Assembly: GCA_035697425.1 (NCBI GenBank)
Contig: DASSCX010000255.1
Coordinates: forward strand, 1,183-65,182
DNA length: 64,000 nt
Reading direction: 5' to 3'
Source of the DNA: Pyrinomonadaceae bacterium
GTDB lineage: Bacteria > Acidobacteriota > Blastocatellia > Pyrinomonadales > Pyrinomonadaceae
Shown: positions 14,876 to 64,000 of the stretch, piece by piece
Numbering within the stretch: position 1 is the stretch's first letter
How the letters are laid out: every line of letters starts with the position of its first letter
The notes under the pieces: generated by a model
What the model saw: only the letters and a program-made list of their open reading frames with translations
What the model was told of the DNA's origin: nothing
Databases searched by the model: none
Position numbers and translations under genes: made by a program

Positions 14876-14893
14876 CTAACTGACGTTTTAAGC

Positions 14894-14920
14894 AGCCACT
14901 CGGTACAGTACCGAGTGGCT
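14894..14920. terminator. Bidirectional terminator hairpin between convergent moaDE and gyrA
   Basis: Perfect palindrome AGCCACTCGGTAC-A-GTACCGAGTGGCT. Confidence 0.6.
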
Positions 14921-14969
14921 ATCGCATTCCGCAGAGTCAAAAAGCCCAACCGGGTTCGCGTCTTGATTA

Positions 14970-45998: not shown

Positions 45999-46038
45999 GC
46001 GCGCATCTTCACCTGCGTAAAAAAGCTTGTCAACGAGA

Positions 46039-46142
46039 AGAAGCGAAGGGGGAAAGGGGAACAGGGGAAAAGCCTACCCGTTTCTCGCCGCCCCTTTCCC
46101 CCGTTCCCCCGTTCCCCCGTTCCCCCTTTTCCCGTTCCCCTC
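46039..46142. repeat. G-tract / C-tract hairpin in the divergent promoter region
   Basis: GAAGCGAAGGGGGAAAGGGGAACAGGGGAAAAG faces CCCCTTTCCCCCGTTCCCCCGTTCCCCCGTTCCCCCTTTTCCCGTTCCCC. The minus strand carries at least seven G3-5 runs with 3-4-nt loops. Confidence 0.8.
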
Positions 46143-46158
46143 TTATACTCGCCGCTTA

Positions 46159-47970: not shown

Positions 47971-49940
47971 GTCAATCTGTCGCGCCGCGCCTTTACATCG
48001 AATGGCGATTAGGACTCATTGCCGCGATCGCAATGAGCGTTCTCGCCTTGGTCCCCCAGTTTCATCTTTGGGCCGTACGTTCCAGCAACTGGCAAGGCAC
48101 ATACGTGACTTTTGATTTTGACGAAGTCGCTTACGCCTCATACTTGAACGCTCTGATTGATGGACGTCCGCGCCGTAACGATCCCTACACCGGACGAGAC
48201 TTTACAGCCCGGGAACCGCTGCCTGAATCCTTACACTCAATTCAATTTGTGGCTGCTTACGCCTTAGCATTACCGGCCCGAGCTTTGGGCTTGTCTACGG
48301 GCGCAACTTTTGTCCTTGTGCGCGCCCTTGCCGCCTTCGCTTCAACCCTCGCCCTTTTTTGGTTACTGGTTTTGATCACAAGTGATAGCCGTGTTGCCGC
48401 GGCCGGAGCCATCGTTGTGCTGTGTCTCGGCGGCTTGGCCGGTGAGCCTTACGATGCCTGGCGCATTATCTCTTTGCGAGGCACAGGTGAGACCTTGCCT
48501 TTCCTGCGACGCTACGTGCCCGCCCTGGTTTTTCCCTTGTTCTTCATCTTTGCCGGCCTTGTTTGGCAGGCATTGCGTAATGGGAAAAAGCAGTCCCTTG
48601 TGCGACCCGCCCTGCTCGCAGGTTGCGTTATTGGCCTGTTGATCTTTTCTTACTTCTTTTTGTGGACCGCAGCGGTCGCCTGGCTCTTCGTTGTCGCAGT
48701 GCTTTGGACAAGCTCAAGCGGTCTAAGAGATCGAAACGCAATTTTGGTTTTGGCGATTCCCGCTGTTTGTGCGGCGTTTGCCCTTGTGCCTTACGGTCTT
48801 TTGCTAAACCAGCGGGCGGCCACCGTTGATGCAGCACAGTTGCTGATGCATTCGCGCGCTCCCCTGGTGAGTCTGCCCGTGGTTATCGGTTTGCTGGTTT
48901 TGCTCGCTTTAGTCATTGTGGTCCGGTCACACCGGCTGCAGTGGCGCCAGCCGGCTGTAATCTTTACGGCCTCGTTTGCTTTATTACCGGCAATAACATT
49001 CAACCAACAAATTGTCACTGGCCTACTCTTGCAACCAGTGCACTACAGCCGCTATATCGCGAACTACACGGGTGTGCTTGCTGCCTTTCTGGCGACTGTA
49101 CTGATTTGTCGCGGCAATCATGAGCGGCTGCCAGCCACGAGCTTCCGCAATCGAATGCTCTTTCTCATAGTTCTAACAGTCTTTGGTTGGGCAATAGTAG
49201 AGAGCAGCGTCCGAAGCGCACGATTCGGCAACCACAACGCCTCGCGTGATGACGCGCAACGAGTAGCCTGGCGACTACGCGAATTAGCAGCTGCGGAAAC
49301 AGCAGCGAGCAATTCCGCTGCGTCGGTGGTGTTCTGCAGCGATCTTCTGTTAGCGGATACACTGCCCAACACGGCGCCTCAGCCAATCCTGTGGGCGTCG
49401 CATCTGTTCGTTTTCTCGGGCGCGTCCACTCCGGAAAATCGCGAGCGGCTTTACCAGCAACTCTATTATTCAGGCGTTAATGAACAGGACTTTGCGGCAC
49501 TGGCGGGTAGATCTAGTTTCTTGCAGCTAGCGCTCTTTGGTTGGGAACGCATGAAGGAGCAGCCACATATCCGCGCAATTACCGATGAAGATGTGCGGCG
49601 AGAAACCTTGCTTTATGCTGAATACATTGGGGCGTTCAATGCAGCGCGCGCCGCGGCGCCCCCCGTTGGTTATCTAGTTACGCCGGCAATGGGTGGACCA
49701 TCCCTAACAAACTTTGATCGTTGGTACGAGCGGGATTCCGGTGAGCGCGTTGGGGACTACATGCTTTATAGAACACGGCAGAGGGTAGTCGGCAGTGGGC
49801 TGGGCAAGGAAGGGCAAGGCAAGGCCAAGGAAATTTATCATTTCTCTTTTGCCATTTCTCATTTTCCATTTGATCAACCTTCAATCCACAATCTGGGGAC
49901 TAACTTTATGGACTTAAATGCCAACTGCGCCGTCGGATGA
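47967..49940 (+). CDS. Polytopic membrane protein, GT-C-like, paralog 2
   Basis: It aligns along its length with paralog 1 (FDFDEVAYASYLNALIDGRPRRNDPYTGRD). The last roughly 55 codons have no counterpart in paralog 1 and are encoded by the left arm of the 300-nt palindrome. Confidence 0.65.
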   Translation: MSQSVAPRLYIEWRLGLIAAIAMSVLALVPQFHLWAVRSSNWQGTYVTFDFDEVAYASYLNALIDGRPRRNDPYTGRDFTAREPLPESLHSIQFVAAYALALPARALGLSTGATFVLVRALAAFASTLALFWLLVLITSDSRVAAAGAIVVLCLGGLAGEPYDAWRIISLRGTGETLPFLRRYVPALVFPLFFIFAGLVWQALRNGKKQSLVRPALLAGCVIGLLIFSYFFLWTAAVAWLFVVAVLWTSSSGLRDRNAILVLAIPAVCAAFALVPYGLLLNQRAATVDAAQLLMHSRAPLVSLPVVIGLLVLLALVIVVRSHRLQWRQPAVIFTASFALLPAITFNQQIVTGLLLQPVHYSRYIANYTGVLAAFLATVLICRGNHERLPATSFRNRMLFLIVLTVFGWAIVESSVRSARFGNHNASRDDAQRVAWRLRELAAAETAASNSAASVVFCSDLLLADTLPNTAPQPILWASHLFVFSGASTPENRERLYQQLYYSGVNEQDFAALAGRSSFLQLALFGWERMKEQPHIRAITDEDVRRETLLYAEYIGAFNAARAAAPPVGYLVTPAMGGPSLTNFDRWYERDSGERVGDYMLYRTRQRVVGSGLGKEGQGKAKEIYHFSFAISHFPFDQPSIHNLGTNFMDLNANCAVG

Positions 49941-50081: not shown

Positions 50082-53000
50082 CTAAGGTAACCCTTCCACG
50101 TTAAAGTACGCCCGGAAGGTTCCGCCCTGCTGCACACCAAGCAGGAAGTGCACATCGATTGACGCCCCATTCGCGATCGCCCCACCGGGAATCGCTACCG
50201 TCGCCGACGAGTTTAAGCCACCACCATTCGGCTGCAGCAGTGGCGTCGGTTGTTCGATCATCAAACCCCTGACTGTCAACATTCCCAGGCTGGTTGTAAT
50301 GCTGAAGTCGGAACCATCAACGACGCGGACGTCTGCCTGAGATCCGCCCGGGCTGTAACCAGGACTGTTTAGTGTCGTGATGTCTACCACGCGGAAGCGA
50401 AGCCGCGTGATCGGCGCACCCGTTTGATTAGTGAAGCGTCGCCGCACCGAGAGGGTGCCGAGCGCGCCGTTGGTTACTGGTGTCAAATCGCGCACGCGGT
50501 TAGGGGCGGCCGCGGAAGAAGTCTGCGGCTCGATCAAGCCCGGCTTGATCGTGGAGTTCCTTTGAATCGGGCTCAACGTATTCTCAGGTCCGGGCGCGCC
50601 CAATTGCGATTGCACACCACCGTAGCTGGCGCCGTTTGTCGAAACAAAAACAAAGTCAGCGGCATTATTGTTAGTATCCTGCGGTAAACCTGTTACTAGT
50701 CTTCGCACGTACGCATACTCCCCGTCGTTTGCTCCATGCGATTGCAGGTTCGTGCCTTCGCGATAGAGATCGGCAGTCGCTCCGGCTACCGAACTCAAGC
50801 TAACCGCGTCGAGTCGTGTGGCGAGCGAGAAGTTGGAAATGTTGTCGCTTTGGAATAGAGCAATCGCGGAATTGTCAGGAATGTTAATTAGCCCTTCCAA
50901 GCCACGATACTTCCGATCGGCGCTGGCATATGTGTCGAGCGTGTATTCGCCGGTTGGTGTGATGCCATTGGGCGCTGGAGGCGCGAGCGGCTCATTTGTC
51001 AGCAAGTAGTGTCCGCGCGCCGGAATGACCGTCCCGTTGGGAATCACCGCGGCAATGTTTTCCAGCGTGCCTGAGCTATCCAGGTAAGAGAGGGCCCAGC
51101 CGCTCGTGCCGTCAACGGAATTCACGGTGATGGCCGCATCGGTGTTGTTGTAAAGTTCGATGTACTCATCAACTGAGCCATCCACTTGGCCGGGAACGAC
51201 GGAAGGCCCACGGAAGCGAAACTCACTAATGATCACCGAACCGACCGCTAAACCACCCAACGAGAAATAAGCAACCGGCATGTCGTGGTCCGAAATGCGC
51301 TCCGGCCGGTTGGAATCGCCGAAGTAGACTTGGGGAAAGTCGGCATTGTTCCGGCCGTAGGCAAAACGGTTAAGAATCGCGAACGCATCGTCGTTAACGA
51401 GCACATGATCGAGCGACTGGGCGTTACCGTCAAAAGTAAACGAATAGCGCTGATCAGAAGGCACTGTATTGATCAAATTCGTCAGATCCGGATTAACCAA
51501 GTCGCTGGAAGCGAGCACTACCTGATCTGCTGGAGTGGGCACGCCGGTGATGGTACCCATGCTGTCCACATAACCATCATTAAACTGAAACGCGTTGTAG
51601 TCGCCGACCGAAATGATCTTTTCGGAAGGATCAGTCGTCTGTCGCGCCTGGATCAGATTCGCAAGATACTCAGCCTGGGCGCGTCGTTTAGCGCGAACAC
51701 GCGCACCCTCAGTACCTGAACCGTTGGGAGTAAGATCATCAACTCCATTTAACGATCGCAAGTGATTCACAATCACCGTAAAGGCGAGCGTGCCTCCAGC
51801 AGGCCTGGCAATCGTGGCGCGCAAAACGAGAGGCGGCCGGTCGTTTAAGATCTCAGGTGAGCCAGTGTTGGGATTGATGTAAGTGTCAGTCAATCCAAAC
51901 TGGGTAACATCAACAACAGAAACCCGCGCGGCCTTCACGAGAAAACCAACGTCAATCAAACCGATGTCATTCCCTTCAACCAGATAGGCCTGATAGTTAG
52001 GGTTGGGCTCCATATTGGCTACGGCATCGTTGTTGACTTTGGTAGCCACCGCCTGGAGCGTGGCTAAATTCTCCATCTCAACTATGCCAATCACGTCGGG
52101 ACTGCGCATCACATTGCGAATCGCCAGCGATGCTTTGTTAAGTCGATTGTTGAAGGCAGTGGTGGTTAAAACCACATCGCCGCCGGGGTCGTCGACGTTA
52201 TTGTAGAAGCGCTGCATGTTGAAAGCGCCGACTGTTAGTTCGTTGGCGGTTTGATCGGGAACGGGCGTGAAAGTGGAAACTGAACCCACGCTCGGAGGCG
52301 TGGCCGGATCCGGGAGGATCGTATACGTGCGGAAACCAAAGTCCACTACACCGGTTATGCCGGTGACTATTGTTCCGCTAGTCAGGTTGATCGCTGTCGC
52401 CCCGGTTTGGCCGTCACTGTCAACACGCAAGCGTTCAGGGTTTTCATCAAAGCGCGGAATACTGCCTGGGGCGCCCGCGGGAAGCGGATCAGAGATGGCA
52501 ATTCCGGGCTCACGGAAAGGCCGAGCTACGCCCGTAACCACGCCATAGAAGACTCCGTTGGAGCTCGCGGTAGCGCTCGACTCAGTGATGTTTCCCTGCG
52601 TCGGTGCAATCGCGGTTAGCGAAGCTACAGTGACGCGCATGCCTTCGTATTCCTCGAGCGTGTCGAGCGGATTGGTCGTCTCAGACGCTTGGGTGGTCTC
52701 GGCGGCCGTAATTACCACCGGAGTCGGCAGCGGATTGCCGGTCGAAAGTTGCAAAACGGTTGGACCGGTGAGTTCTGTCAGCGGTGGACTGCTGGGATCT
52801 GCGGAAGGAATAAAATCAGAGACCGTTCCAGTGACTTGTACGCTATTGCCAAGCGCCGCCGCCGCCGGCGGCGCACTGGAAGTGAAAACAAAGATGCCTT
52901 CCGATGTGTTGGGATCGGCATCAACGGTGGCATCAGGCTCCTGAATAAAAAAGCCATTGCTCTTTAATCCGGTGACGACACCGGTAGTCGTTACTACTTG

Positions 53001-54209
53001 TGCCGCAAGTGGCGAAGTGGAGCCAGAGCCTTGGATCGTGTGAATCGGCGTGAGGGTCGCGTCGTCATTGTTGATAGTTCCCAAACCCTGCACGTCGCCG
53101 GGGTTCGCGTTGACGATGTTTGTTATGTTGACGAAGAAAGTTTCGTTGGGTTCGTTAGTCCCATCCCCGTTGACCGTGACAGAAAAGCTAGCCGAGGTAT
53201 TGCCGGCAGTAATAGTTCTTCCAATTTCAGAGTTGGCTACATAGTCGTTATCTTCAGTTGCTGGATTATCGTCCTGGGCAGTGCCATCCGCCGTGGCGAC
53301 GTCAAAAGTTACGTCGCTCGCCCCGGGAATCGTCAAACTCACTTGAAAGGTAAAAGTTGTGGTGCCGGCGTTGCCTTCAGCCAGCGACACGTCGTTGATA
53401 CTGAGAATAGGAAGTGTGGGTCCCGTGCTAACGCTGATGTCATCTACACCAATCCACTCATCATTGCCGACAGCATTAGTCGACATAATGCGGACTTGAA
53501 CTTCTGCTTGATTCTCTGCGGCTACCGGCAGCGCAACGCTAACTGGCGTCACCTGAGTACAGAGACTCGGCCCTGCCGAGGCATCCGCCACATAACCGGC
53601 GGCAATGTTTGTAAAGTTGCCGCTATTGCCGACGCGATACTGCAATGCGATCTGCTGGATAGAGTTATCCGAAGTGCAGTCGATATCGCGCAGATTGTAA
53701 GAGACGTTAATTCCCGACTGCCCCGTAGTGTTCAAGTAAAGAATGATGTGCGGCGCGTCGGCCGTGCCCGATCCTTGCAGGGCGATGGTTGAATCTGTAG
53801 CCGGACCACCCGTCTGCGAAGTGGTGTGAAACTCGCCCACGTCACCGTTTGTGATTGCCGTCGAGGTTTGGTTAGCAAAAACGGTTAGGTCGCCGGCAAC
53901 GCCGCTGGCCCCAGTGAGAATTGTCTGCGGGTCGGTTCCCGTTGCAGTCGTTAAGTCCTGTCCCAGAAACCCCTGAATACCAGCCACGCCCGTCCAGATG
54001 TCGTTCGTCGTGATAAGGCCATTATTCGACCAGTTTTGGCTGAACGGCAGCGTTTGTGTTGAAGCATCGGCCAGAGCAACCGAGAAGGACGACAGTCGCA
54101 GCAACGAACTTCCTGGCAGCGATAGCACCAACAATGCGCCTAAAGTCAGGGCAAGAAACTGACGGCGTTTGGTAGCACGTCTTTGACGGCTGCTCGGCAA
54201 GGTAAACAC
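50082..54209 (-). CDS. ExeM/NucH-like extracellular nuclease: N-terminal domain, Calx-beta, endonuclease/exonuclease/phosphatase (EEP) domain, LTD plus shared C-terminal module
   Basis: It has a signal peptide. The Calx-beta pattern is SINDVSLAEGNAGTTTFTFQVSLT...DNDY. The EEP motifs are LTVGAFNMQRFYN, IVEMEN, GDYNAF and SDHDMPVAYF. The shared-module motifs are ISEFRFRGP...DEYIELYNN, GAPGPENTLSPIQRN and TRLRFRVVDITT, ending NVEGLP. Confidence 0.8.
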   Translation of the reverse strand: MFTLPSSRQRRATKRRQFLALTLGALLVLSLPGSSLLRLSSFSVALADASTQTLPFSQNWSNNGLITTNDIWTGVAGIQGFLGQDLTTATGTDPQTILTGASGVAGDLTVFANQTSTAITNGDVGEFHTTSQTGGPATDSTIALQGSGTADAPHIILYLNTTGQSGINVSYNLRDIDCTSDNSIQQIALQYRVGNSGNFTNIAAGYVADASAGPSLCTQVTPVSVALPVAAENQAEVQVRIMSTNAVGNDEWIGVDDISVSTGPTLPILSINDVSLAEGNAGTTTFTFQVSLTIPGASDVTFDVATADGTAQDDNPATEDNDYVANSEIGRTITAGNTSASFSVTVNGDGTNEPNETFFVNITNIVNANPGDVQGLGTINNDDATLTPIHTIQGSGSTSPLAAQVVTTTGVVTGLKSNGFFIQEPDATVDADPNTSEGIFVFTSSAPPAAAALGNSVQVTGTVSDFIPSADPSSPPLTELTGPTVLQLSTGNPLPTPVVITAAETTQASETTNPLDTLEEYEGMRVTVASLTAIAPTQGNITESSATASSNGVFYGVVTGVARPFREPGIAISDPLPAGAPGSIPRFDENPERLRVDSDGQTGATAINLTSGTIVTGITGVVDFGFRTYTILPDPATPPSVGSVSTFTPVPDQTANELTVGAFNMQRFYNNVDDPGGDVVLTTTAFNNRLNKASLAIRNVMRSPDVIGIVEMENLATLQAVATKVNNDAVANMEPNPNYQAYLVEGNDIGLIDVGFLVKAARVSVVDVTQFGLTDTYINPNTGSPEILNDRPPLVLRATIARPAGGTLAFTVIVNHLRSLNGVDDLTPNGSGTEGARVRAKRRAQAEYLANLIQARQTTDPSEKIISVGDYNAFQFNDGYVDSMGTITGVPTPADQVVLASSDLVNPDLTNLINTVPSDQRYSFTFDGNAQSLDHVLVNDDAFAILNRFAYGRNNADFPQVYFGDSNRPERISDHDMPVAYFSLGGLAVGSVIISEFRFRGPSVVPGQVDGSVDEYIELYNNTDAAITVNSVDGTSGWALSYLDSSGTLENIAAVIPNGTVIPARGHYLLTNEPLAPPAPNGITPTGEYTLDTYASADRKYRGLEGLINIPDNSAIALFQSDNISNFSLATRLDAVSLSSVAGATADLYREGTNLQSHGANDGEYAYVRRLVTGLPQDTNNNAADFVFVSTNGASYGGVQSQLGAPGPENTLSPIQRNSTIKPGLIEPQTSSAAAPNRVRDLTPVTNGALGTLSVRRRFTNQTGAPITRLRFRVVDITTLNSPGYSPGGSQADVRVVDGSDFSITTSLGMLTVRGLMIEQPTPLLQPNGGGLNSSATVAIPGGAIANGASIDVHFLLGVQQGGTFRAYFNVEGLP

Positions 54210-54497: not shown

Positions 54498-54767
54498 TTA
54501 TGCCAGCAGGCGATGCGCCCCGAGCGAAGTTAGCAGTCGTTTGATCGACTCTGCGGCATGTTCTTCACTTACGTCGTAGCGATCGCAAATCTCGCGAGCG
54601 ATCTCTGACGTAGTTTGACCGCGTTCCAGTCCAAGCCATACGAGCATTGCGGTCTCGTTCAGCGTGTAGTAACGCTTAGTATTCAGATCGACGAGCACAG
54701 CTTCACGACCGTCGAATTCGGTATAGACGATATGGCTGTGTGGGTGTGGTGTGGCAGAAGCGTTCAA
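54498..54767 (-). CDS. PqqD-family peptide-binding protein (RiPP recognition element)
   Basis: It is 89 aa. KRYYTLNETAMLVWLGLERGQTTSEIAREICDRYDVSEEHAAESIKRLLTSL fits the PqqD pattern. It lies 24 nt downstream of the radical SAM gene. Confidence 0.75.
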   Translation of the reverse strand: MNASATPHPHSHIVYTEFDGREAVLVDLNTKRYYTLNETAMLVWLGLERGQTTSEIAREICDRYDVSEEHAAESIKRLLTSLGAHRLLA

Positions 54768-54791: not shown

Positions 54792-55886
54792 TCAGTCGCT
54801 GGTAGTGGCGGGCGCCACGATTACCGGCAGCGAACGTCCGTTGGCCGCCTGACCGTTAAGTCGCGCACTGCGCCAGGGGATTTTTCCAAAACTCTGCAGG
54901 CAGAATAGACACGGTGACCCGGTATAAAGATCAGGCGTCTCACCGCGCGCTGCGATTTCGGCCAAAGCTTGCCGGCGTCGTTCGAGTTGCTGCTGCGCGA
55001 GGGCTTGCAAACGCGCATAGCCAACCGCAAAACTCTCATGATGCAGATCTGCCAAAACATCAGGTTCGCCGTCAGCGTTGCGATAACCTGCAAGGTTGCA
55101 GCAAAGCGTCAGACGACCGCGCCAATCGACATTGCAACTGGTAGTTTTTAGCGGCGAACAAGGAACTTCGGAATCGATGTCGTAGTAACCCGCGGCGATG
55201 CCGATCGGCATCTTGAGAATCTTCGCGAGTCCCATCACTTCCTGTTCCGCATGACGTTGCTCCTCAAGCGTCAAGGCTGACTCGTTCTCGGCTTCAGCCG
55301 ATGTTGGCAATAAATGAGAAAAATGCAGCGCGGCAGCACCGAGACGCGCGGCCAGCAAAGCAATCTGTTCCAACTCGGTCATCGTATCGCGCCGGATTCC
55401 GACTTTGAACACGAACGGGATGTTCTGCACGTGACAGCGAGTTACCGCCCGGATCACGCGATCGAACGATCCGGCGCCGCGCCAGAAGTCGTGCGTTTCG
55501 CGCGTGGCTCCGTCTACACTGAAGGCCACGAGTCGCACGGCTTGCTTGTTAGCCATGATCGCCGGATAAACCCGATCGAAGTGCCAACCGTTAGTGACGA
55601 AGCTGCATTGCATGCCTTCGCTTGCCACCGCGGCAATCATTTCGTTGAAGTGCGGGTGGAGCGTTACTTCGCCGCCCGTGAAGGTTACATAGTCGATCTG
55701 GTAAGCGTCGCGCGCCTCGCGCACAATTCGTCCCAGCAACTCGGCGGGAAAGTAGTTCGCTTTGGTGTGATAGAGCGCGTCCTCATCGCGCATGCAATAG
55801 CTGCAGTGGAGATTGCAGATGTTCGTCAGCTCGACCGTTAATCGAACTGGATCCGGGCGCTGGGGAACTTCGGTGGTGACAGTCAC
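54792..55886 (-). CDS. Radical SAM enzyme with Cys-rich SPASM/twitch-like C-terminal domain
   Basis: The CxxxCxxC motif lies in LTNICNLHCSYCM. C-terminal cysteines are CSPLKTTSCNVDWRGRLTLCCNLAGY and SPCLFC. It is 364 aa. Confidence 0.85.
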   Translation of the reverse strand: MTVTTEVPQRPDPVRLTVELTNICNLHCSYCMRDEDALYHTKANYFPAELLGRIVREARDAYQIDYVTFTGGEVTLHPHFNEMIAAVASEGMQCSFVTNGWHFDRVYPAIMANKQAVRLVAFSVDGATRETHDFWRGAGSFDRVIRAVTRCHVQNIPFVFKVGIRRDTMTELEQIALLAARLGAAALHFSHLLPTSAEAENESALTLEEQRHAEQEVMGLAKILKMPIGIAAGYYDIDSEVPCSPLKTTSCNVDWRGRLTLCCNLAGYRNADGEPDVLADLHHESFAVGYARLQALAQQQLERRRQALAEIAARGETPDLYTGSPCLFCLQSFGKIPWRSARLNGQAANGRSLPVIVAPATTSD

Positions 55887-55895
55887 GAAACCTTT

Positions 55896-56810
55896 TTACT
55901 CTGTCATGTAGAGGGCGAGCAAGTCAGCCGCTCGCTCCGGCTGAAGCAACAGGTCACGACCCGCCGCCAGTTCATAAGCACGACATTGATTTGCCAGCCG
56001 CGCCAGCACTCGCAAATATTCGGGCGCAGTGCAAGTGTCGTAAGTCGCCCAGGGACAATGTCTCACGAGTTGCTCCATCGCAGCCCGAGAATCGACCTTA
56101 TTGATCTTCGTTTCGGCCGCCGCCACTACTTGGGGGAAGAAGAGGACGCGCGGTTGGCAGCTTGCCGCCCGACTTTCAGGGAAAACAGTTTCCGGTTCGA
56201 GGCGGCGTTTCGAAGGATCGGAAGCTACTGGAGCACCCAGGGCGGCGCTCAACCTCAGGCTGCTGCTACCAACTACGGAAGTGTCAGCTACCGCAAACAA
56301 TCGGCGAAGCCCTTCAACTTCCAGCGTCGCAGGAGTTTCACGTAAAACTACCATGTCGTCCGACAAGTAGAGCCAGCCCGCCTCCGTGAGCCGCAACGTC
56401 AACGTGGTCTTGCCGCTGCCGGAAGCGCCAACGAAAAGTGCGCCAGCCTGCGAAAGAGGTTCAACGGCCGCGGCGGCATGCACATCAAAAACGCCGGCGC
56501 GGCGCAGCGCCGCTTGCAATCCATACGAAAAAGCATTTACAAGCGCGACTGGGTGGCGCGCTTGTTCAGTTACGCCAAACCAAACCTCCACTTGTCGCTC
56601 CGCTGGAGGGCAGATGTGAACCAGAGACTCGTCGACCGTCAAAAAGTATTGGCTCTGATCGGTGTAACAGTGGCCGCGATTGATGGCGAACGATTGCAAC
56701 CCGGAGGGAATGTTAGGAAGCGCCGCCCGTCTTACGGTTAATGTTATCGAGGGCTGGTCGACGGGCGCGAACGTGTGTACGAGGTGAAAGCCGTTTAGGA
56801 AACTTGCCAC
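55896..56810 (-). CDS. HPr-kinase-C-terminal-like P-loop protein (HprK-related kinase)
   Basis: GASGSGKTTLTLRLTEAGWLYLSDDMVVL mirrors the HprK pattern GxSGxGKS...LVxDD. It lies 9 nt upstream of the radical SAM gene. Confidence 0.65.
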   Translation of the reverse strand: MASFLNGFHLVHTFAPVDQPSITLTVRRAALPNIPSGLQSFAINRGHCYTDQSQYFLTVDESLVHICPPAERQVEVWFGVTEQARHPVALVNAFSYGLQAALRRAGVFDVHAAAAVEPLSQAGALFVGASGSGKTTLTLRLTEAGWLYLSDDMVVLRETPATLEVEGLRRLFAVADTSVVGSSSLRLSAALGAPVASDPSKRRLEPETVFPESRAASCQPRVLFFPQVVAAAETKINKVDSRAAMEQLVRHCPWATYDTCTAPEYLRVLARLANQCRAYELAAGRDLLLQPERAADLLALYMTE

Positions 56811-56958
56811 CCACTGTGCTTCCCAATCGCCCAGGGTATGAACGCGCAGGAGCCGGCCGGCAATATTGTAATGACTAATCAGACCAGAAGTTGCGTTGGC
56901 TTGAAACTGCGATTCGAGGATTCACCAGGCACGGACCAAACACCAGAGCCTGCAGTTG

Positions 56959-57141
56959 TTAGGTTGTGGTGCTTTCGATGGTGGGCGCCTGGAAAAATGT
57001 GGTTGCTTCCAGAACCTCTATCGGCACCGATATGGCGGGTTCGATAAATGGTTTTTTTGGCGACGCCTTGGTTGATTCAGATTCTTCAGTCATCTGCTCA
57101 GATAGAGAATCATCGGATGTAATGGCATTGAGCATATTCAA
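56959..57141 (-). CDS. Candidate RiPP precursor peptide A1 (60 aa from the TTG at 57141; the ORF is open to 57171)
   Basis: GGAGG lies 8 nt upstream of the TTG. It has an acidic/Ser-rich N-terminal part and the C-terminus KPFIEPAISVPIEVLEATTFFQAPTIESTTT. It is a paralog of the peptide at 57448..57618. Confidence 0.65.
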   Translation of the reverse strand: MNMLNAITSDDSLSEQMTEESESTKASPKKPFIEPAISVPIEVLEATTFFQAPTIESTTT

Positions 57142-57195
57142 GTCTAGAACCTCCGAGGATAATTGTGCCAATGTTGAACTGCTGTTAACCCTATG

Positions 57196-57337
57196 TCAAC
57201 CGCCAGAACATCCGTGGTTACCGACACAACCGGTGCAACAAACAATTTCTTCACTGTGGCTCGCTGGCAGCTACTTCAGTTTGTGAAGTTTCCTCACTAA
57301 CCTGATCGCTGGGTGTGCGAGTAGATTGCTTGATCAA
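57196..57337 (-). pseudogene. Frame-split third peptide gene: leader-like ORF (57251..57337) plus a Cys-rich ORF in another frame (57196..57270)
   Basis: The TTG context AACCTTGATCAAGCAA matches that of A2. Frame 0 gives LIKQSTRTPSDQVSEETSQTEVAASEPQ followed by a stop. The +1 frame gives ..SHSEEIVCCTGCVGNHGCSGG followed by a stop. Confidence 0.35.
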
Positions 57338-57447
57338 GGTTGAGGTATCGTAAAACATTGATCGCTGCTTTGGCTTCGCTGCCGGCACCGGTCAGGGTTC
57401 TGGCCAGTGCCGGCAATTAAGCAGACACACACACGCAAACGCAAACG

Positions 57448-57618
57448 CTATACAGTGGTGGTATCGACAGTAGGAGCCTGGAAAAAGGTTGTCGCCTCGA
57501 GCACATCTTCAGGAGTTGAGACGGTCGGCTCTACGAACGGCAGCTTCGACTCGGTTTTTGACAGTTCTGTCTGTTCGTTGACTTGCTCGCTGACAATAAG
57601 GCTGTTTTGCTTAATCAA
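57448..57618 (-). CDS. Candidate RiPP precursor peptide A2 (56 aa, TTG start; not in the supplied ORF track)
   Basis: My own minus-strand translation is (M)IKQNSLIVSEQVNEQTELSKTESKLPFVEPTVSTPEDVLEATTFFQAPTVDTTTV. GGAG lies 8 nt upstream and overlaps the TGA of the upstream gene. Confidence 0.65.
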   Translation of the reverse strand: MIKQNSLIVSEQVNEQTELSKTESKLPFVEPTVSTPEDVLEATTFFQAPTVDTTTV

Positions 57619-57630
57619 GGTTCAGTCTCC

Positions 57631-58515
57631 TCACATTTTGATTGTCTGGCTGGTTGGCTGGGCTAGTACGAGACGCAAAGGTCGGGTTTCGTACGTTTGT
57701 AGATCGGTACGTTGATACAAACGAATGTTCGGCGAAAGCGTCCTCACCACTTGCTCAATTGTGGCGTTTTTTAAGTCAACATTAACAACTTCCGAAGAGT
57801 CATATTTCATCTCGAAGGGAATGTCAACCTTGGTTGCAATCTCGTAAAGTACTGCGGTCAGGGGTTGTTTGACCGCGTGCACAGTAAACTGATTCCGCTC
57901 GATTTTGACGCTTAATGACGTCTCTTGTTCGTCCTTTGCGGCGCGTTCGGTTCCTTCTTCGGTGTCTCCGGAAATCAGGATAGCTTCGGAATCGCCGCGC
58001 ACCACAGCCGACTCTGACGGTGGTGGCTCGTTGAGGGCATAAAGATAAAGAGCAACTATCTTCGCCATGGTGCTGCCGTCACCACTGATCTCGTAATCAG
58101 CATAGGGCTGCGGCGCAATCATGCGCACGGCCCCCTCGAGAGGCATGCTCTCAAATTCGATCGAGACGCGGGCCTTCTGCATTACCGGACTCAATAGAAC
58201 CGGAATTTCAAACTCTTTGCTGAGTTTTGCCGCAATCTCCGCAACGGAAGCGGCATTCGCTTTCAAGTCCACAGCGCGCACGGGACCGCTGGCAACCTTC
58301 AAAGTAAATTTGCCTTTAGCTTCTTTGCCTTTCGGTGTTTCGCCAGGCGTGGCTGTTTGCTTATCCGCTGGTTTCTCGTTTGCCGCCGCAGGTTTGGCTT
58401 GGGTGGTTGGGGTTGCGGGCGGCGTTGTTTGATTGCGACTTTGGGCCAGCAGTGTGCCCGGGAGGATAAGTAATAGAATTAATCCTAACAAGCGCCTTGA
58501 AAAACTTTCCTGCAT
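57631..58515 (-). CDS. Secreted protein with two STN-like (secretin/TonB N-terminal-like) segments, unknown function
   Basis: It has a signal peptide, a Pro/Thr/Lys-rich linker and two segments resembling STN domains (VDLKANAASVAEIAAKLSKEFEIPVLL; LTAVLYEIATKVDIPFEM..VDLKNATIEQVVRTL). Confidence 0.45.
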   Translation of the reverse strand: MQESFSRRLLGLILLLILPGTLLAQSRNQTTPPATPTTQAKPAAANEKPADKQTATPGETPKGKEAKGKFTLKVASGPVRAVDLKANAASVAEIAAKLSKEFEIPVLLSPVMQKARVSIEFESMPLEGAVRMIAPQPYADYEISGDGSTMAKIVALYLYALNEPPPSESAVVRGDSEAILISGDTEEGTERAAKDEQETSLSVKIERNQFTVHAVKQPLTAVLYEIATKVDIPFEMKYDSSEVVNVDLKNATIEQVVRTLSPNIRLYQRTDLQTYETRPLRLVLAQPTSQTIKM

Positions 58516-58793: not shown

Positions 58794-60056
58794 CTAGTGA
58801 AAATGGCTGGGCCCACCTGTGACTACCAATCGCAACGGACGCACAAGGTAATAAATAAAATTCAACGCCGGGGGCAATTTCAGCCGCACCAAGTCTTTCT
58901 CGTTCGGTGTGAATGTGAATCTTAAGTAGTTAAGTTTGTCGCGCAGCCGGCGCCGCGCGCGTAGCTGAAACCGGAAATAGCCTGACATCCCTGTGCGCGT
59001 GAGGGCCGGAGTGAAAAGATCGCGTATCACATCGCGGGCCAAAGCCGCCACTGAAGCGTCGGCATTCAATGCCGCCTCCACGCGTACCGGCAATGGTGCT
59101 TCAAGTAAATCGGCGGCCAAACGTAACCCCAGAAAAAGCATCCGCTCATTGCCAGTAGCACGGGCCCGGCGAATCAACTCTTCCCAGTTGAGTTCCGTGT
59201 GCGCAACCAGACCGGCAATGTCGCAAATCCAGGCAAGTCGCTCCCAGAGATGTTTCGTACCATGAATGCAGAGCGCCAAAACCAGATCTTCGTTAGCCGG
59301 CACCTTGATACTCATAGTTTCCAGGCGTGCATTCACCAAACGTGACCAAAAAGCATCCGCCTCGAACGGTCGCGCAAAGGTTGGCGCACTAACGGTCCAG
59401 TGAAGCTCGACGATCATCCGGTTACGCTCACGCGTAAAAGGAAGGTTGCACTGAGTTCGCAACAGCACCGCCTGTTGACCATCAGTAAGTGGCGGCAATT
59501 GCGCATAACCTTCGGCAATAAGTAAGTCGCGAGCTCTCAATACGTCACGCGGGTGTACCAGAATGTCGAGATCGCTGAACTGGCGCAGTGCGACATCTCC
59601 GTAAAGCTGCAATGCGAGCGCCGGACCTTTATAAGGCACTGCCTGCACATCATGGTCGGCAAACAACGCCAGCAATCTCTGCAGCTCGTGAGTGAGAAGG
59701 ATGTTCAACGCGGAAACACGTTGAAAAGCGACTCGCAGATGCTGCCGGATTCCCGCCGGCACAGCATTAGGACAGACGTCGTTCAGATGCCAGTGCAGTA
59801 ATGGCTGCAAACCGTGGCGATCTGCCAGCTGCAAAACGAGATCCCAGTCGAGTGGTTGCGACACGAGATCCTGAATTCGTTTTCTTTGCGTCTCATCAAG
59901 AGACGCACGCGCGCAAGTAAGCAGCAAGCTGTGCTCCGGACGCGCCGCAGGAAAACCGCTTGCTACAACAGATGTCGCTGCCTCTCGGTACAGTACGGGA
60001 GCGGTCACGACCCCATTCACCTCATAGAAACTGTGTTGTGAAGAAGGCGAGCTCAT
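58794..60056 (-). CDS. Uncharacterised nucleotidyltransferase family protein (NTP_transf_5-like)
   Basis: It is 420 aa. The patterns LLLTCAR...DWDLVLQLADRHGLQPLL...VPYKGPALA..LYGDVALRQFSDLDILV are typical of PF14907-type proteins, which neighbour PqqD/HprK-like genes. Confidence 0.6.
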   Translation of the reverse strand: MSSPSSQHSFYEVNGVVTAPVLYREAATSVVASGFPAARPEHSLLLTCARASLDETQRKRIQDLVSQPLDWDLVLQLADRHGLQPLLHWHLNDVCPNAVPAGIRQHLRVAFQRVSALNILLTHELQRLLALFADHDVQAVPYKGPALALQLYGDVALRQFSDLDILVHPRDVLRARDLLIAEGYAQLPPLTDGQQAVLLRTQCNLPFTRERNRMIVELHWTVSAPTFARPFEADAFWSRLVNARLETMSIKVPANEDLVLALCIHGTKHLWERLAWICDIAGLVAHTELNWEELIRRARATGNERMLFLGLRLAADLLEAPLPVRVEAALNADASVAALARDVIRDLFTPALTRTGMSGYFRFQLRARRRLRDKLNYLRFTFTPNEKDLVRLKLPPALNFIYYLVRPLRLVVTGGPSHFH

Positions 60057-62771: not shown

Positions 62772-64000
62772 TCACAAATCAAACTCACTAATCAAACGAT
62801 GCAGGTAGGAACGACTAATGCCAAGCAGTTTGGCCGCCGCCACTTTATTCCCGCCAGAAGACTCCAGCGCTTTTAAGATCATGCGACGTTTCAGCGCAGC
62901 CACGCCGCCTTCCAGCGTCGCTTCATCGGCTAGATTTGTCCCGGGGAGAATTCTCAGCATTTTTTCCGGTAAGAACTCCAAATCTAGCGCCGGTCCATTA
63001 GTCAGGACCACCAGTCGTTCCATAACGTTTTCCAGCTCCCGCACATTTCCCGGCCACTCATATTCCTGTAATGCATCCACCAGCAGCGGGTCGAGCACGG
63101 GGGCGGGTCGCAAATACTTTTGCGCTGCTTTCTCGGCGAAATGAATCGCCAGAACCGGTATGTCTTCTTTGCGGGCACGCAATGCAGGCAAGACTAACGG
63201 CACTACATTCAAGCGGTAGAATAGATCACGTCGAAACCTGCCCGCCGCAACCTCTTGTTCCAGGTCGCAATTGCTCGCGGCGACGAGCCTGATATCGACA
63301 TGCAAAGTCTTCGTGCCGCCGACGCGTTCAAAGGATCGCTCCTGCAACACTCGCAATAGCTTGACCTGAACCGTGGGCGAGAGATCAGCTATTTCATCGA
63401 GAAATAATGTGCCGCCATCTGCCAGCTCAAAACGACCTTTGCGTGTTTGCGTCGCAGTCGTGAAGGATCCCTTCTCATGGCCAAACAATTCCGACTCGAT
63501 CAGCGTCTCAGGTAAAGCCGCACAACTAACGCCGACGAACGGACCAGCAGCTCGGGGACTTTCCTCATGAATGGCGCGGGCCAGCAATTCCTTGCCGGTT
63601 CCGTTTTCACCGATGACCAGCACGGTTGCGCTTGTCGCCGCCACGGTGCGCGCGTGTTTGACGATTCGTTCAAGAGACTGGCTGCCACCAATCAGGTGAC
63701 TGAATCCTCGTGAGCCCAACAACTCCTCGCGCAGTCTCACGTTCTCGATTTCGAGGCGTCGCATTCGTGCTGCCTGATTCACGATGTGCAACACTTCGTC
63801 GGCGTCGAGCGGCTTTTCAAAAAAACCATAGGCGCCATGTTTAACTGCTTCCAGCGCCGCTCGCTTGGAGTTGCTCCCGGTGATCACCACCGCCTGAACT
63901 GCCGGCCGCATGCTGCGCGCCGCTTGCACTACGGTAAGTCCTTCGGAAATGTCATCAAGATGCGGCGGCAGATGAAGGTCGCTGATAACTACATCGACCT
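62772..64000 (-). CDS. Sigma-54-dependent Fis-family response regulator (NtrC-like); the N-terminus runs off the window
   Basis: The AAA+ motifs are GENGTGKE and GAFTGA-like ESELFGHEKGSFTTA. The C-terminal HTH is GGNKVAAAKLLGISRSYLHRLI. The receiver-domain frame stays open through 64000 (..VDVVISDLHLPP..). Confidence 0.9.
   Translation of the reverse strand, partial: VDVVISDLHLPPHLDDISEGLTVVQAARSMRPAVQAVVITGSNSKRAALEAVKHGAYGFFEKPLDADEVLHIVNQAARMRRLEIENVRLREELLGSRGFSHLIGGSQSLERIVKHARTVAATSATVLVIGENGTGKELLARAIHEESPRAAGPFVGVSCAALPETLIESELFGHEKGSFTTATQTRKGRFELADGGTLFLDEIADLSPTVQVKLLRVLQERSFERVGGTKTLHVDIRLVAASNCDLEQEVAAGRFRRDLFYRLNVVPLVLPALRARKEDIPVLAIHFAEKAAQKYLRPAPVLDPLLVDALQEYEWPGNVRELENVMERLVVLTNGPALDLEFLPEKMLRILPGTNLADEATLEGGVAALKRRMILKALESSGGNKVAAAKLLGISRSYLHRLISEFDL

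What the first reader, a model, noticed from the sequence alone, without database searches (positions are those of the whole stretch)
56959..57618. Two paralogous precursor-like peptides share an invariant 12-residue block encoded by different codons; one is missing from the ORF track
A1 ends ...KPFIEPAISVPIEVLEATTFFQAPTIESTTT and A2 ends ...LPFVEPTVSTPEDVLEATTFFQAPTVDTTTV. A2 is 56 codons with a TTG start, so it falls below the track's size cut-off. The block VLEATTFFQAPT is identical in both peptides, although 9 of its 12 codons differ at synonymous positions (gtt/gtg, ctg/ctc, gaa/gag, gca/gcg, acc/aca, aca/acc, gcg/gct, ccc/cct, acc/act). That is the signature of purifying selection on this reading frame. 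Both have a GGAG(G) 8 nt upstream of a TTG start, variable acidic/Ser-rich N-terminal (leader-like) halves, a shared PF(I/V)EP motif (a possible RRE-binding site) and Thr-rich C-termini. The FFQ/APT aromatic segment could be a site for rSAM C-C or C-O crosslinking, but that is pure speculation.
Basis: seen in the sequence. Interest (0 to 1): 0.8.

Follow-up and report, generated by a model that had tools for sequence, protein, structure and literature searches.

The report
Lasso-like leader, radical-SAM peptide precursors
Two small neighbouring genes in a soil acidobacterium (family Pyrinomonadaceae) encode real, strongly conserved precursor peptides, and they sit in an operon with a radical-SAM enzyme and helper proteins of the lasso-peptide type, which points to an uncharacterised family of ribosomally made, enzymatically modified peptides.

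Summary
A1 (56959..57141, 60 aa) and A2 (57448..57618, 56 aa), both on the minus strand, share VLEATTFFQAPT, and 9 of its 12 codons differ synonymously. The A1/A2 pair alone cannot rule out the antisense shadow frame. The family can: there are at least 690 homologous peptides, 171 genomic stretches in GTDB species representatives and 196 clusters at 50% identity, nearly all from Pyrinomonadaceae. Across them the peptide frame is always open, while the shadow frame carries stops in 55 of 88 sequences.

In all 49 loci with enough flank the order is nucleotidyltransferase, secreted 290-aa protein, peptide(s), HprK-like kinase, radical-SAM enzyme, PqqD. A lasso-B2-type protease usually lies nearby. 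No lasso cyclase is present.

The conserved block follows the lasso leader register: F(-17), P(-14), V/I(-12), T(-2). This predicts cleavage at ...LEATT|FFQ... and cores of 11-12 residues (FFQAPTIESTTT, FFQAPTVDTTTV). So the invariant block spans the end of the leader and the start of the core.

Best reading: these are precursors of an undescribed radical-SAM RiPP that uses lasso-type leader handling and tailoring. The chemistry is unknown. No Pfam, NCBIfam or literature description was found. A third, decayed copy lies between A1 and A2.

The parts
57448..57618 (-). Precursor peptide A2 (56 aa; TTG start, GGAG 8 nt upstream). Predicted leader ends at ...DVLEATT; predicted core is FFQAPTVDTTTV.
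   Evidence: GenBank HET6671348.1, 'hypothetical protein'. Orthologues of this type occur in L010, L011 and L012.
57379..57416 (-). GC-rich RNA hairpin (13-bp stem) just downstream of A2. Probably a transcript-processing, stabilising or attenuating element between the first precursor and the rest of the operon.
   Evidence: the 114-nt region folds at -43 kcal/mol, z = -2.8. The same hairpin, with sequence changes that keep most of the stem paired, is in L008 and L010-L012. A different GC hairpin followed by a T-run follows the precursor in loci of the 11-residue-core subtype.
57144..57337 (-). A3, a decayed third copy of the precursor gene. It has no Shine-Dalgarno sequence and a frameshift after 28 codons. 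The invariant E(-15), P(-9) and E(-4) are replaced and the FFQ core is lost.
   Evidence: and the DNA alignment. Its N-terminal part matches copy 2 of L010 and L008.
56959..57141 (-). Precursor peptide A1 (60 aa from TTG 57141, GGAGG 8 nt upstream; 58 aa if ATG 57135 is used). Predicted core is FFQAPTIESTTT.
   Evidence: GenBank HET6671347.1 (60 aa). P0001 is the 58-aa call.
55896..56810 (-). HprK-like P-loop kinase. The Walker A motif G.SGSGK.TL and the motif YLSDD are conserved. The conserved reading frame continues about 37 codons upstream of GTG 56810.
   Evidence: NCBIfam HprK_rel_A E = 1.8e-12 (46.9 bits, cutoff 200), plus weak Pfam Hpr_kinase_C. Conservation in 73 homologues. Present in 49/49 loci. 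N-terminal extension.
54792..55886 (-). Radical-SAM enzyme with a C-terminal auxiliary-cluster domain of the twitch/SPASM type. It has no N-terminal RRE.
   Evidence: Pfam Radical_SAM E = 1.4e-25. CX3CX2C at residues 24/28/31, plus C151, C243-x13-G-x4-C262-C263 and C326-x2-C329, are invariant in 71 homologues. The AF2 model (pLDDT 79) is closest to SkfB, SuiB, BlsE and PqqE. Present in 49/49 loci.
54498..54767 (-). Discrete PqqD-family RiPP recognition element (like lasso B1).
   Evidence: Pfam PqqD E = 1.9e-16. The best NCBIfam match is the lasso PqqD chaperone, 52.2 bits (cutoff 70). Present in 49/49 loci.
57631..58515 (-). Conserved secreted 294-aa protein of unknown function. It has a signal peptide, a disordered linker and two alpha/beta domains. 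It ends 12 nt before A2's start codon and is probably co-transcribed with it.
   Evidence: faint FecR_C. Present in 49/49 loci. AF2 pLDDT 74. Foldseek gave nothing below E = 0.04, only weak resemblance to secretin N0, DotD and FecR/PupR C-terminal domains.
58794..60056 (-). Nucleotidyltransferase of family NTP_transf_5, a possible tailoring enzyme.
   Evidence: Pfam PF14907 E = 2.7e-64. Present in 49/49 loci, same strand.
36862..37356 (+). Cysteine protease of the lasso B2 type (transglutaminase-like, MEROPS C96). The motifs CWKRA and GHAW.E are conserved. It is the candidate leader peptidase. Here it lies about 17 kb from the operon.
   Evidence: NCBIfam NF033537 lasso_biosyn_B2, 52.2 bits, above the cutoff of 33. 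Pfam Transglut_core3 E = 9.7e-16. Within 10 kb in 36/49 loci, and directly adjacent to PqqD in L001. Motifs.
62772..63929 (-). Sigma-54-dependent response regulator upstream of the operon. It is a possible regulator; the link is by synteny only.
   Evidence: Pfam Sigma54_activat E = 5.9e-71. Upstream in 43/49 loci. No sigma-54 promoter match was found near the operon.

Best explanation
A1 and A2 are translated precursor peptides of an uncharacterised radical-SAM-dependent RiPP pathway. The pathway is conserved across the acidobacterial family Pyrinomonadaceae.

Proposed mechanism, with the status of each step:
1. The discrete PqqD protein binds the leader through F(-17)-x-x-P(-14)-x-[V/I](-12), as lasso B1 proteins bind Y-x-x-P-x-L. 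This is inferred from the exact register and from homology.
2. The radical-SAM enzyme, which has no RRE of its own, is recruited and modifies the core. The most likely site is the near-invariant N-terminal Phe-Phe-Gln. This is inferred, and the chemistry is unknown.
3. The HprK-like kinase and the NTP_transf_5 nucleotidyltransferase tailor Thr/Ser residues of the polar tail. One related subtype also carries a sulfotransferase-like protein. This is inferred by analogy with phosphorylated and glycosylated lasso peptides.
4. The B2-type cysteine protease, activated by PqqD bound to the leader, cuts after the residue that follows the invariant Thr(-2). This releases an 11-12-residue product: FFQAPTIESTTT from A1 and FFQAPTVDTTTV from A2. 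This is inferred.

What is shown: the reading frame and its selection, the peptide family, the motif register, the domain identities and the invariant gene order.
For: Reality of the genes:
- At least 690 homologous peptides of 55-62 aa.
- 171 confirmed stretches in GTDB species representatives, almost all labelled Pyrinomonadaceae, Blastocatellia or Acidobacteriota.
- 196 clusters at 50% identity in 1.84 billion representatives.
- In the peptide frame pN/pS is 0.16 with no stops, while every other frame is broken in many members.
- The decayed copy A3 shows what relaxed selection looks like at this locus.

Context:
- NTP_transf_5, sec290, peptide(s), HprK-like kinase, rSAM and PqqD lie in this order on one strand in 49/49 loci with at least 4.5 kb on both sides.
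- Domain identities.
- The rSAM has conserved auxiliary-cluster cysteines, and its nearest structures are the RiPP maturases SkfB and SuiB.
- Tandem multi-copy precursors occur in L010-L012, L048, L053 and L072, and a hairpin follows the first precursor. From general knowledge, both features are common in RiPP operons.

Leader register, in 260 of 269 retrieved peptides:
- F(-17) 98%; P(-14) (required by the anchoring pattern); V/I/L(-12) 99%; T(-2) 98%; position -1 variable.
- These are the positions reported for lasso leaders: Tyr-17, Pro-14, Leu-12 and Thr-2 (PMC10368454; PMC10885120).
- Distant members keep ...DVLEAT-x and then diverge (FFV, FFL, FFG, FAL...). This is the pattern of a conserved leader followed by a variable core.

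Tailoring analogy:
- HPr-kinase homologues phosphorylate lasso precursors. Nucleotidyltransferases add hexoses to the phosphate. Sulfotransferase genes occur in the same clusters (PMC8498205).
- Core position +6 is T/S in 182/260 and D/E in 47/260.
Against: - There is no biochemical, transcript or proteomic evidence. No modification has been observed.
- In this window the B2-type protease is 17 kb away on the other strand. It is not within 10 kb in 13/49 loci, so its membership rests on synteny plus the Thr(-2) rule.
- All loci come from one bacterial family, so constant gene order partly reflects shared ancestry rather than functional coupling.
- The sequences used for the register were collected by similarity to the block itself, so the absolute conservation values are inflated. 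Only the contrast between positions is informative.
- No exporter or immunity gene lies in the operon.
- Every NCBIfam equivalog for known rSAM systems scores far below its cutoff, and Pfam SPASM is not hit. The reaction therefore cannot be predicted.
- The core tail is rather conserved for an antimicrobial RiPP.
Confidence: 0.75

Rival explanations
1. The conservation belongs to protein-coding ORFs on the plus strand. These are the 'shadow' frames 56966..57286 and 57407..57715, which share third codon positions with the minus-strand peptides.
For: Both plus-strand ORFs are open in this window. For the A1/A2 pair alone, pN/pS in that frame (0.32) is close to that of the peptide frame (0.26).
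Against: Across 88 distinct homologous blocks the shadow frame has stop codons in 55. The other two antisense frames have stops in 20 and 35. The peptide frame has none. Start, Shine-Dalgarno sequence and stop are all conserved on the minus strand. The whole operon is on the minus strand. Several independent gene callers chose the minus-strand peptides.
Confidence: 0.01
2. These are ordinary lasso-peptide precursors whose cyclase is encoded elsewhere in the genome. On this view the radical-SAM enzyme is only a tailoring enzyme.
For: The leader register is of the lasso type. There is a B1-like PqqD, a B2 protein above the NCBIfam cutoff, and a kinase and nucleotidyltransferase as in phosphorylated lasso clusters. 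The 12-residue subtype has D/E at core position 8.
Against: No Asn_synthase-like gene was found within 10 kb in L001, L003 or L005, nor among the large ORFs of the 64-kb window. Core residue 1 is Phe in 93% of members and G/A/S/C in only 2 of 260. D/E at positions 7-9 is absent in 119 of 260, including the abundant FFQAATSGATN type. From general knowledge, cores of 11-12 residues are shorter than known lasso peptides.
Confidence: 0.04
3. The pathway does not make a secreted natural product. It makes a peptide-derived cofactor or an intracellular or periplasmic signal, in the manner of PQQ or mycofactocin. This is the same biosynthetic logic with a different biological role.
For: The C-terminal region is unusually conserved across a whole bacterial family, with one locus per genome fragment. 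There is no transporter or immunity gene in the operon. The rSAM with a discrete PqqD is the PQQ/mycofactocin architecture, and MftC and PqqE are among its matches. The operon lies next to housekeeping genes (lepA) and a sigma-54 two-component system.
Against: Neither the C-terminal Val-Tyr of MftA nor the Glu-x3-Tyr of PqqA is present (sequence). No downstream cofactor-processing enzymes or dependent dehydrogenases lie in the operon. Tandem divergent copies and two core subtypes look more like natural-product diversification. A co-transcribed secreted protein suggests a role in the cell envelope or outside the cell.
Confidence: 0.15
4. A1 and A2 are small unmodified proteins that merely neighbour the rSAM and PqqD genes, for example regulators or envelope peptides.
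For: No modification has been shown. The function of the adjacent secreted protein is unknown.
Against: The position between tailoring-type enzymes is invariant in 49/49 loci. The leader motif matches the recognition rule of the co-encoded type of RRE. A discrete PqqD and an rSAM lacking its own RRE need a peptide substrate, and no other small ORF is conserved there.
Confidence: 0.05

Closest known systems
Phosphorylated or glycosylated lasso peptide systems with split B1/B2 (paeninodin, pseudomycoidin, BsfA of Bradymonas)
   Same: The leader register is aromatic(-17)-x-x-P(-14)-x-aliphatic(-12) ... T(-2). The shared parts are a discrete PqqD-type RRE, a transglutaminase-like B2 protease (above the NCBIfam cutoff), an HPr-kinase homologue and a nucleotidyltransferase. 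The 11-residue-core subtype also has a sulfotransferase-like gene.
   Different: There is no Asn-synthetase-like cyclase. The core starts with Phe-Phe-Gln instead of Gly/Ala/Ser/Cys. There is no consistent Asp/Glu at positions 7-9, and the core is only 11-12 residues long. A radical-SAM enzyme occupies the centre of the operon, and there is no ABC exporter.
Haft's computationally defined rSAM/PqqD/HprK-like cassettes: SynChlorMet (ScmC/D/E/F), GeoRSP, and the HPr-rel-A system (TIGR04352/TIGR04353)
   Same: The same trio is present: a radical-SAM enzyme with an auxiliary-cluster domain, a PqqD-family chaperone and an HprK-related P-loop protein. Weak matches to all of these models were found. 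Pfam ScmC is a faint hit on the orthologue in L003.
   Different: All scores are far below the curated cutoffs: ScmE 78 against 400, ScmD 27 against 100, GeoRSP rSAM 49 against 400, HprK_rel_A 47 against 200, PqqD_rel_X 24 against 35. The precursor family and the taxon differ. From my own knowledge, those cassettes are themselves uncharacterised; the paper library held nothing on them.
Radical-SAM RiPP and cofactor maturases with peptide substrates (SkfB, SuiB, PqqE, MftC)
   Same: They have the CX3CX2C core plus a C-terminal Fe-S domain. They are the nearest solved structures (SkfB E = 1.9e-13, SuiB, PqqE) and the nearest in sequence. The partnership with a discrete PqqD resembles PqqE/PqqD and MftC/MftB.
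   Different: Identity is only 13-20%. The auxiliary motif is shortened to C-x13-G-x4-CC ... C-x2-C. The substrate has no Cys, so no thioether is possible. It has no Lys-Trp pair and no C-terminal Val-Tyr.
Triceptides (three-residue cyclophane-forming rSAM enzymes, motif aromatic-X-X)
   Same: The near-invariant Phe-Phe-Gln at the predicted start of the core formally fits an aromatic-X-X motif. This is from my own knowledge of the class and is a lead only.
   Different: No cyclophane-maturase family appears among the 25 best NCBIfam matches listed, of 66 in all. In distant members the third position can be Gly, Ala or Leu. Nothing here tests the chemistry.

Membership tests
Lasso peptide biosynthetic system | Leader with Y/aromatic(-17), P(-14), L/aliphatic(-12) and Thr(-2) | tested here: met
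   F 98%, P (fixed by the anchor), V/I/L 99%, T 98% in 260 peptides. The rule is taken from PMC10368454 and PMC10885120.
Lasso peptide biosynthetic system | B1 (PqqD-type RRE) and B2 (transglutaminase-like cysteine protease) | tested here: met
   PqqD: Pfam E = 1.9e-16; lasso_PqqD_Strm 52 bits, below the cutoff of 70. B2: NF033537 52.2 bits, above the cutoff of 33, with the Cys and His motifs conserved. However, B2 is 17 kb away in this window.
Lasso peptide biosynthetic system | ATP-dependent lasso cyclase (Asn-synthetase homologue, protein C) | tested here: not met
   No Asn_synthase hit in the neighbourhoods of L001, L003 and L005, nor among the window ORFs scanned. Whole genomes were not searched.
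Lasso peptide biosynthetic system | Core with a small N-terminal residue (G/A/S/C) and Asp/Glu at positions 7-9 for the macrolactam | tested here: not met
   Residue 1 is G/A/S/C in 2 of 260 and Phe in 243 of 260. D/E at positions 7-9 occurs in 141 of 260.
Radical-SAM-dependent RiPP (generic rSAM plus RRE plus precursor) | rSAM enzyme with CX3CX2C and an auxiliary Fe-S (SPASM/twitch) domain | tested here: met
   Pfam Radical_SAM E = 1.4e-25. The fold is nearest SkfB and SuiB. Pfam SPASM itself is not hit, so the subtype (twitch or SPASM) is unresolved.
Radical-SAM-dependent RiPP (generic rSAM plus RRE plus precursor) | RRE (PqqD) and a small co-directional precursor gene next to the enzyme | tested here: met
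   Met in 49/49 loci.
Radical-SAM-dependent RiPP (generic rSAM plus RRE plus precursor) | Demonstrated post-translational modification of the peptide | not testable with these tools
   Needs co-expression and mass spectrometry.
SynChlorMet cassette / GeoRSP / HPr-rel-A system (NCBIfam equivalogs) | Scores above the curated cutoffs of the equivalog models | tested here: not met
   ScmE 78.2 against 400, ScmF 72.1 against 400, GeoRSP_rSAM 48.7 against 400, ScmD 26.9 against 100, HprK_rel_A 46.9 against 200, PqqD_rel_X 23.9 against 35.
Mycofactocin / PQQ | MftC or PqqE equivalog, and a precursor with C-terminal Val-Tyr (MftA) or Glu-x3-Tyr (PqqA) | tested here: not met
   MftC 80.7 against 265; PqqE 50.8 against 381. 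There is no Tyr in the conserved region of the peptides.
Sactipeptide / ranthipeptide | Cys donors in the core | tested here: not met
   Cys occurs in 2 of 260 predicted cores.
Triceptide (3-residue cyclophane) | An aromatic-X-X motif crosslinked by a dedicated rSAM/SPASM maturase | tested here: inconclusive
   The FFQ motif is present, but there is no family-level match of the enzyme in the listed hits and no chemistry.

The most novel reading that the evidence does not exclude
This would be a new RiPP class in which the lasso-peptide 'front end' has been uncoupled from the lasso cyclase and attached to a radical-SAM enzyme. The front end comprises the leader code F/Y-x-x-P-x-L...T-x, the B1 RRE, the B2 protease, and the kinase, nucleotidyltransferase and sulfotransferase tailoring enzymes. 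The radical-SAM enzyme would act on an N-terminal Phe-Phe-Gln. The product would be a short (11-12 residue), possibly phospho- or glyco-decorated peptide. It would be made by essentially the whole family Pyrinomonadaceae, one of the commonest soil acidobacterial groups. It would also be the first use of a C96 (lasso B2) leader peptidase outside lasso peptides.
Probability: 0.45. Interest if true: 0.75.

Novelty: new variant of a known kind. Interest (0 to 1): 0.62.

Why it matters
Acidobacteria of the family Pyrinomonadaceae are abundant in soils but mostly uncultured, and their peptide natural products are essentially unknown.

This locus gives three things: a well-defined and widely conserved precursor family, a predicted cleavage site and a compact enzyme set. 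Together these can be tested directly by heterologous expression.

If the lasso-type RRE and protease really serve a radical-SAM enzyme, leader-recognition modules can be exchanged between RiPP classes. That matters for genome-mining rules, because current tools would label the B2 gene 'lasso' and miss the pathway. It also matters for engineering hybrid RiPPs.

The radical-SAM enzyme belongs to no characterised family, so it may catalyse a new reaction on Phe-Phe-Gln.

Tried and rejected
- **Shadow-frame explanation.** It was rejected only after the family-level stop-codon test.
- **Sigma-54 promoter.** A search for TGGCAC-N5-TTGCW with up to 2 mismatches gave 24 hits against 36.7 expected, and none sits upstream of the operon. 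The sigma-70 and terminator scans were at background.
- **Known RNA families.** An Rfam scan of 56500..58000 found nothing credible.
- **Peptide family models.** NCBIfam and Pfam have no family for the peptides or for the 294-aa protein.
- **Secreted 294-aa protein.** AF2 plus Foldseek gave no significant structural neighbour. Only weak similarity to secretin-N0/FecR-C-like domains was seen.
- **Distant family members.** Their contigs are about 1 kb. They show only that the 294-aa homologue is again upstream.
- **Literature.** Searches on rSAM + HPr kinase + PqqD, Acidobacteria + SPASM, SynChlorMet/GeoRSP, Pyrinomonadaceae BGCs, and lasso protease + radical SAM found no description of this system. 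This covers the held library only.
- **Public names of the rSAM homologues.** All are generic, such as 'radical SAM protein' or 'MoaA/NifB/PqqE/SkfB family'.
Full report
**1. The observation**

The region 56959..57618 carries two short minus-strand ORFs.
- A2 (57448..57618) has a TTG start, 56 codons, and GGAG 8 nt upstream.
- For A1, the mechanical ORF list starts at TTG 57171. The start with GGAGG 8 nt upstream is TTG 57141, giving 60 aa. GenBank's annotation of this MAG uses that start (HET6671347.1). A2 is HET6671348.1, and both are named 'hypothetical protein'.

The window therefore comes from a Pyrinomonadaceae MAG contig of 72 kb.

The block VLEATTFFQAPT is identical in both peptides, and 9 of its 12 codons differ synonymously. 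Over the last 32 codons, mismatches by codon position are 8/5/24.

**2. Which strand?**

For the A1/A2 pair, pN/pS is 0.26 in the peptide frame and 0.32 in the antisense frame that shares third positions.

The family settles the question.
- A profile of A1 and A2 finds 690 proteins at E <= 0.01, nearly all 55-62 aa.
- A scan of one genome per GTDB species finds 171 confirmed stretches. The records are labelled Pyrinomonadaceae, Blastocatellia or Acidobacteriota, with two labelled Thermoanaerobaculia.
- An exhaustive HMM search of 1.84 billion representatives finds 196 clusters at 50% identity.
- In 88 distinct 75-nt blocks from these loci, entropy by codon position is 0.40/0.28/1.46.
- pN/pS is 0.16 in the peptide frame, with no stops.
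- The shadow frame has stops in 55 of 88, and the other antisense frames in 20 and 35.

One caveat applies: 8 of the 25 codons were fixed by the search pattern. The plus-strand explanation is refuted.

**3. A third copy**

Between A2 and A1 lies A3 (57144..57337). It begins like the second precursor of the related loci L008 and L010 (LIKQ...DQ...EP). It has lost its Shine-Dalgarno sequence and is frameshifted after 28 codons. It has substitutions at the otherwise invariant E(-15), P(-9) and E(-4), and it has lost FFQ. It serves as an internal control for what happens at this locus without selection.

Related loci carry two or three intact tandem precursors (L010-L012, L048, L053, L072), and L005 has a decayed copy of the A2 type. 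The A2-type peptide (…STPEDVLEATTFFQAPTVDTTTV) and the A1-type peptide (…SVPxDVLEATTFFQAPTIESxTT) recur as a pair in several species. The duplication is therefore old and both copies are maintained.

**4. Context**

All on the minus strand, in this order:

| Gene | Coordinates |
|---|---|
| NTP_transf_5 nucleotidyltransferase | 58794..60056 |
| Secreted 294-aa protein | 57631..58515 |
| A2 | 57448..57618 |
| Strong hairpin | 57379..57416 |
| A3 (pseudogene) | 57144..57337 |
| A1 | 56959..57141 |
| HprK-like P-loop protein | 55896..56810 |
| Radical-SAM enzyme | 54792..55886 |
| PqqD protein | 54498..54767 |

In all 49 loci with at least 4.5 kb on both sides, the six protein and peptide genes occur in this order on one strand.

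A transglutaminase-like protein scores above NCBI's cutoff for 'lasso peptide biosynthesis B2 protein' (52.2 bits against 33), with conserved CWKRA and GHAW motifs.
- It lies on the opposite strand within 10 kb in 36/49 loci.
- In L001 it abuts PqqD.
- In this window it is 17 kb away (36862..37356), with a nuclease and membrane-protein genes in between.

The subtype with 11-residue cores has an extra sulfotransferase-like gene between the rSAM and PqqD (L076).

No Asn-synthetase-like lasso cyclase is present in the three neighbourhoods with precomputed Pfam hits, nor among the window ORFs scanned.

**5. The enzymes**

- **Radical-SAM enzyme.** It has CX3CX2C at residues 24/28/31. It also has invariant C151, C243-x13-G-x4-C262C263 and C326-x2-C329. 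This is an auxiliary-cluster domain of the twitch/SPASM kind in a shortened form, and there is no N-terminal RRE. The best sequence and structure neighbours are the peptide maturases SkfB and SuiB, then BlsE, DesII, PqqE and anSME. All NCBIfam equivalogs are far below their cutoffs, and public names are generic.
- **HprK-like protein.** It keeps the Walker A motif and a YLSDD motif.
- **PqqD protein.** Its best NCBIfam match is the lasso PqqD chaperone.

**6. Anatomy of the peptide**

The N-terminal halves vary in length and sequence. The conserved part is K-K-x-F-V-E-P-x-[VI]-S-x-P-x-D-V-L-E-A-T-T-F-F-Q, followed by a short polar tail.

If F is numbered -17, then P is -14, V/I is -12 and the first T of 'ATT' is -2. 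In 260 of 269 retrieved members the frequencies are:

| Position | Residue and frequency |
|---|---|
| -17 | F 98% |
| -12 | V/I/L 99% |
| -2 | T 98% |
| -1 | variable (T/A/S/K/G/R) |
| +1 | F 93% |
| +2 | F 95% |
| +3 | Q 84% |

These are exactly the positions reported as recognition elements of lasso leaders. [quoted passage not shown]

Distant members keep ...DVLEAT-x and then diverge (FFV..., FFL..., FFG..., FAL...). This is the pattern expected of a conserved leader followed by a variable core.

The predicted cores are FFQAPTIESTTT (A1) and FFQAPTVDTTTV (A2). Family-wide there are two subtypes, FFQxPT[IVL][DE]xxxx (12 residues) and FFQxx[TSDE]SGxTN (11 residues).

**7. Mechanism (shown versus inferred)**

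Shown:
- the frame and its selection
- the peptide family
- the motif register
- the domain identities
- the gene order

Inferred:
- PqqD binds F-x-x-P-x-[VI].
- The rSAM, which lacks its own RRE, is recruited and modifies the core. The conserved Phe-Phe-Gln is the most plausible site.
- The kinase and nucleotidyltransferase decorate Thr/Ser of the tail, as their homologues do on lasso precursors (PMC8498205). One subtype also has a sulfotransferase-like protein.
- Core position +6 is T/S in 182 and D/E in 47 of 260, a pattern compatible with a phospho-site.
- The B2 protease cuts after position -1.

The hairpin after the first precursor is conserved in related loci, with changes that keep most of the stem paired. 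In the other subtype it is replaced by a GC hairpin plus a T-run. It probably raises the ratio of precursor to enzyme transcripts.

The chemistry of the rSAM step cannot be predicted. Thioethers are excluded because there is no Cys, and the MftA and PqqA motifs are absent.

**8. Comparison with known systems**

- **Works like:** an rSAM/RRE RiPP pathway with lasso-type leader handling and tailoring.
- **Not a member of lasso peptides:** the cyclase is absent, the core N-terminus is Phe, and there is no consistent acidic residue at positions 7-9.
- **Not a member of the defined cassettes:** SynChlorMet, GeoRSP, HPr-rel-A, mycofactocin and PQQ all score below their cutoffs.
- **Not a sacti- or ranthipeptide:** there is no Cys.
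- **Triceptide-like chemistry** on FFQ is a lead only.

A 2023 review covers C96 transglutaminase-like proteases only under lasso peptides. Seven searches of the held library found no description of this system.

**9. Verdict**

This is a real, selected and widely distributed precursor-peptide family in an undescribed radical-SAM RiPP-like operon. I rate it a new variant of a known kind.

Confidence that these are modified-peptide precursors of this operon is about 0.75 to 0.85. Confidence in the specific cleavage site and tailoring steps is about 0.5. The biological role (antimicrobial, signal or cofactor-like) is open. Two features keep the cofactor or signal reading alive: the operon has no exporter, and the core is unusually conserved.

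Noticed in passing
window 57144..57337 (-): A third, decayed copy of the precursor gene (A3) lies between A2 and A1. It has no Shine-Dalgarno sequence, a frameshift after 28 codons, substitutions at invariant leader residues and no FFQ core. Its N-terminus is orthologous to the second precursor of L008 and L010.
   Followed up: yes
window 57379..57416 (-); L008, L010-L012; 11-mer subtype loci such as L018 and L027: A strong GC hairpin lies directly after the first precursor gene. In close relatives it is conserved, with changes that keep most of the stem paired. In the other subtype a different GC hairpin followed by a T-run sits at the same place. It may be an attenuator or a processing site.
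   Followed up: partly
window 56811..56921 (-): The HprK-like ORF is conserved at protein level for about 37 codons upstream of its first canonical start (GTG 56810). In this window that stretch contains no ATG, GTG or TTG and is preceded by a stop. L005 has a TTG there. Possible causes are a non-canonical start, a sequencing or assembly error, or a recent truncation.
   Followed up: partly
L076 12212..13270 (+) and 14228..15136 (+): Loci of the 11-residue-core subtype carry a sulfotransferase-like gene (weak Pfam Sulfotransfer_3 hit, E = 0.001) between the rSAM and PqqD. An HTTM-domain membrane protein lies downstream of PqqD. Both are absent from the window.
   Followed up: partly
window 57631..58515 (-): The conserved secreted 294-aa protein is co-transcribed with the precursors. 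AF2 gives two confident alpha/beta domains (residues 69-159 and 201-284) after a disordered linker. There is no significant structural neighbour, only weak resemblance to secretin N0, DotD and FecR/PupR C-terminal domains. Its function is unknown.
   Followed up: partly
window 50082..54209 (-): A 1375-aa ExeM/NucH-type extracellular nuclease with Calx-beta and lamin-tail domains follows PqqD on the same strand. A homologue is downstream in 38/49 loci. It is unclear whether it belongs to the system or is only syntenic.
   Followed up: no
window 46027..47970 (+) and 47967..49940 (+): Two tandem paralogous polytopic membrane proteins (647 and 657 aa) have overlapping stop and start codons. They have no Pfam match, and the first also has no NCBIfam match. 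Homologues are present in only 6 of 49 related loci, so they are probably an insertion between the operon and the B2 gene.
   Followed up: no
family-wide, core position +6: The predicted core position +6 is Thr/Ser in 182 and Asp/Glu in 47 of 260 peptides. This alternation resembles a phospho-site replaced by a phosphomimetic residue, and it makes +6 a candidate target of the HprK-like kinase.
   Followed up: no
window 57418..57447 (-): A short GT-rich low-complexity tract (GCGTTTGCGTTTGCGTGTGTGTGT) lies immediately after the A2 stop codon. It is conserved in L008 and L010-L012.
   Followed up: no
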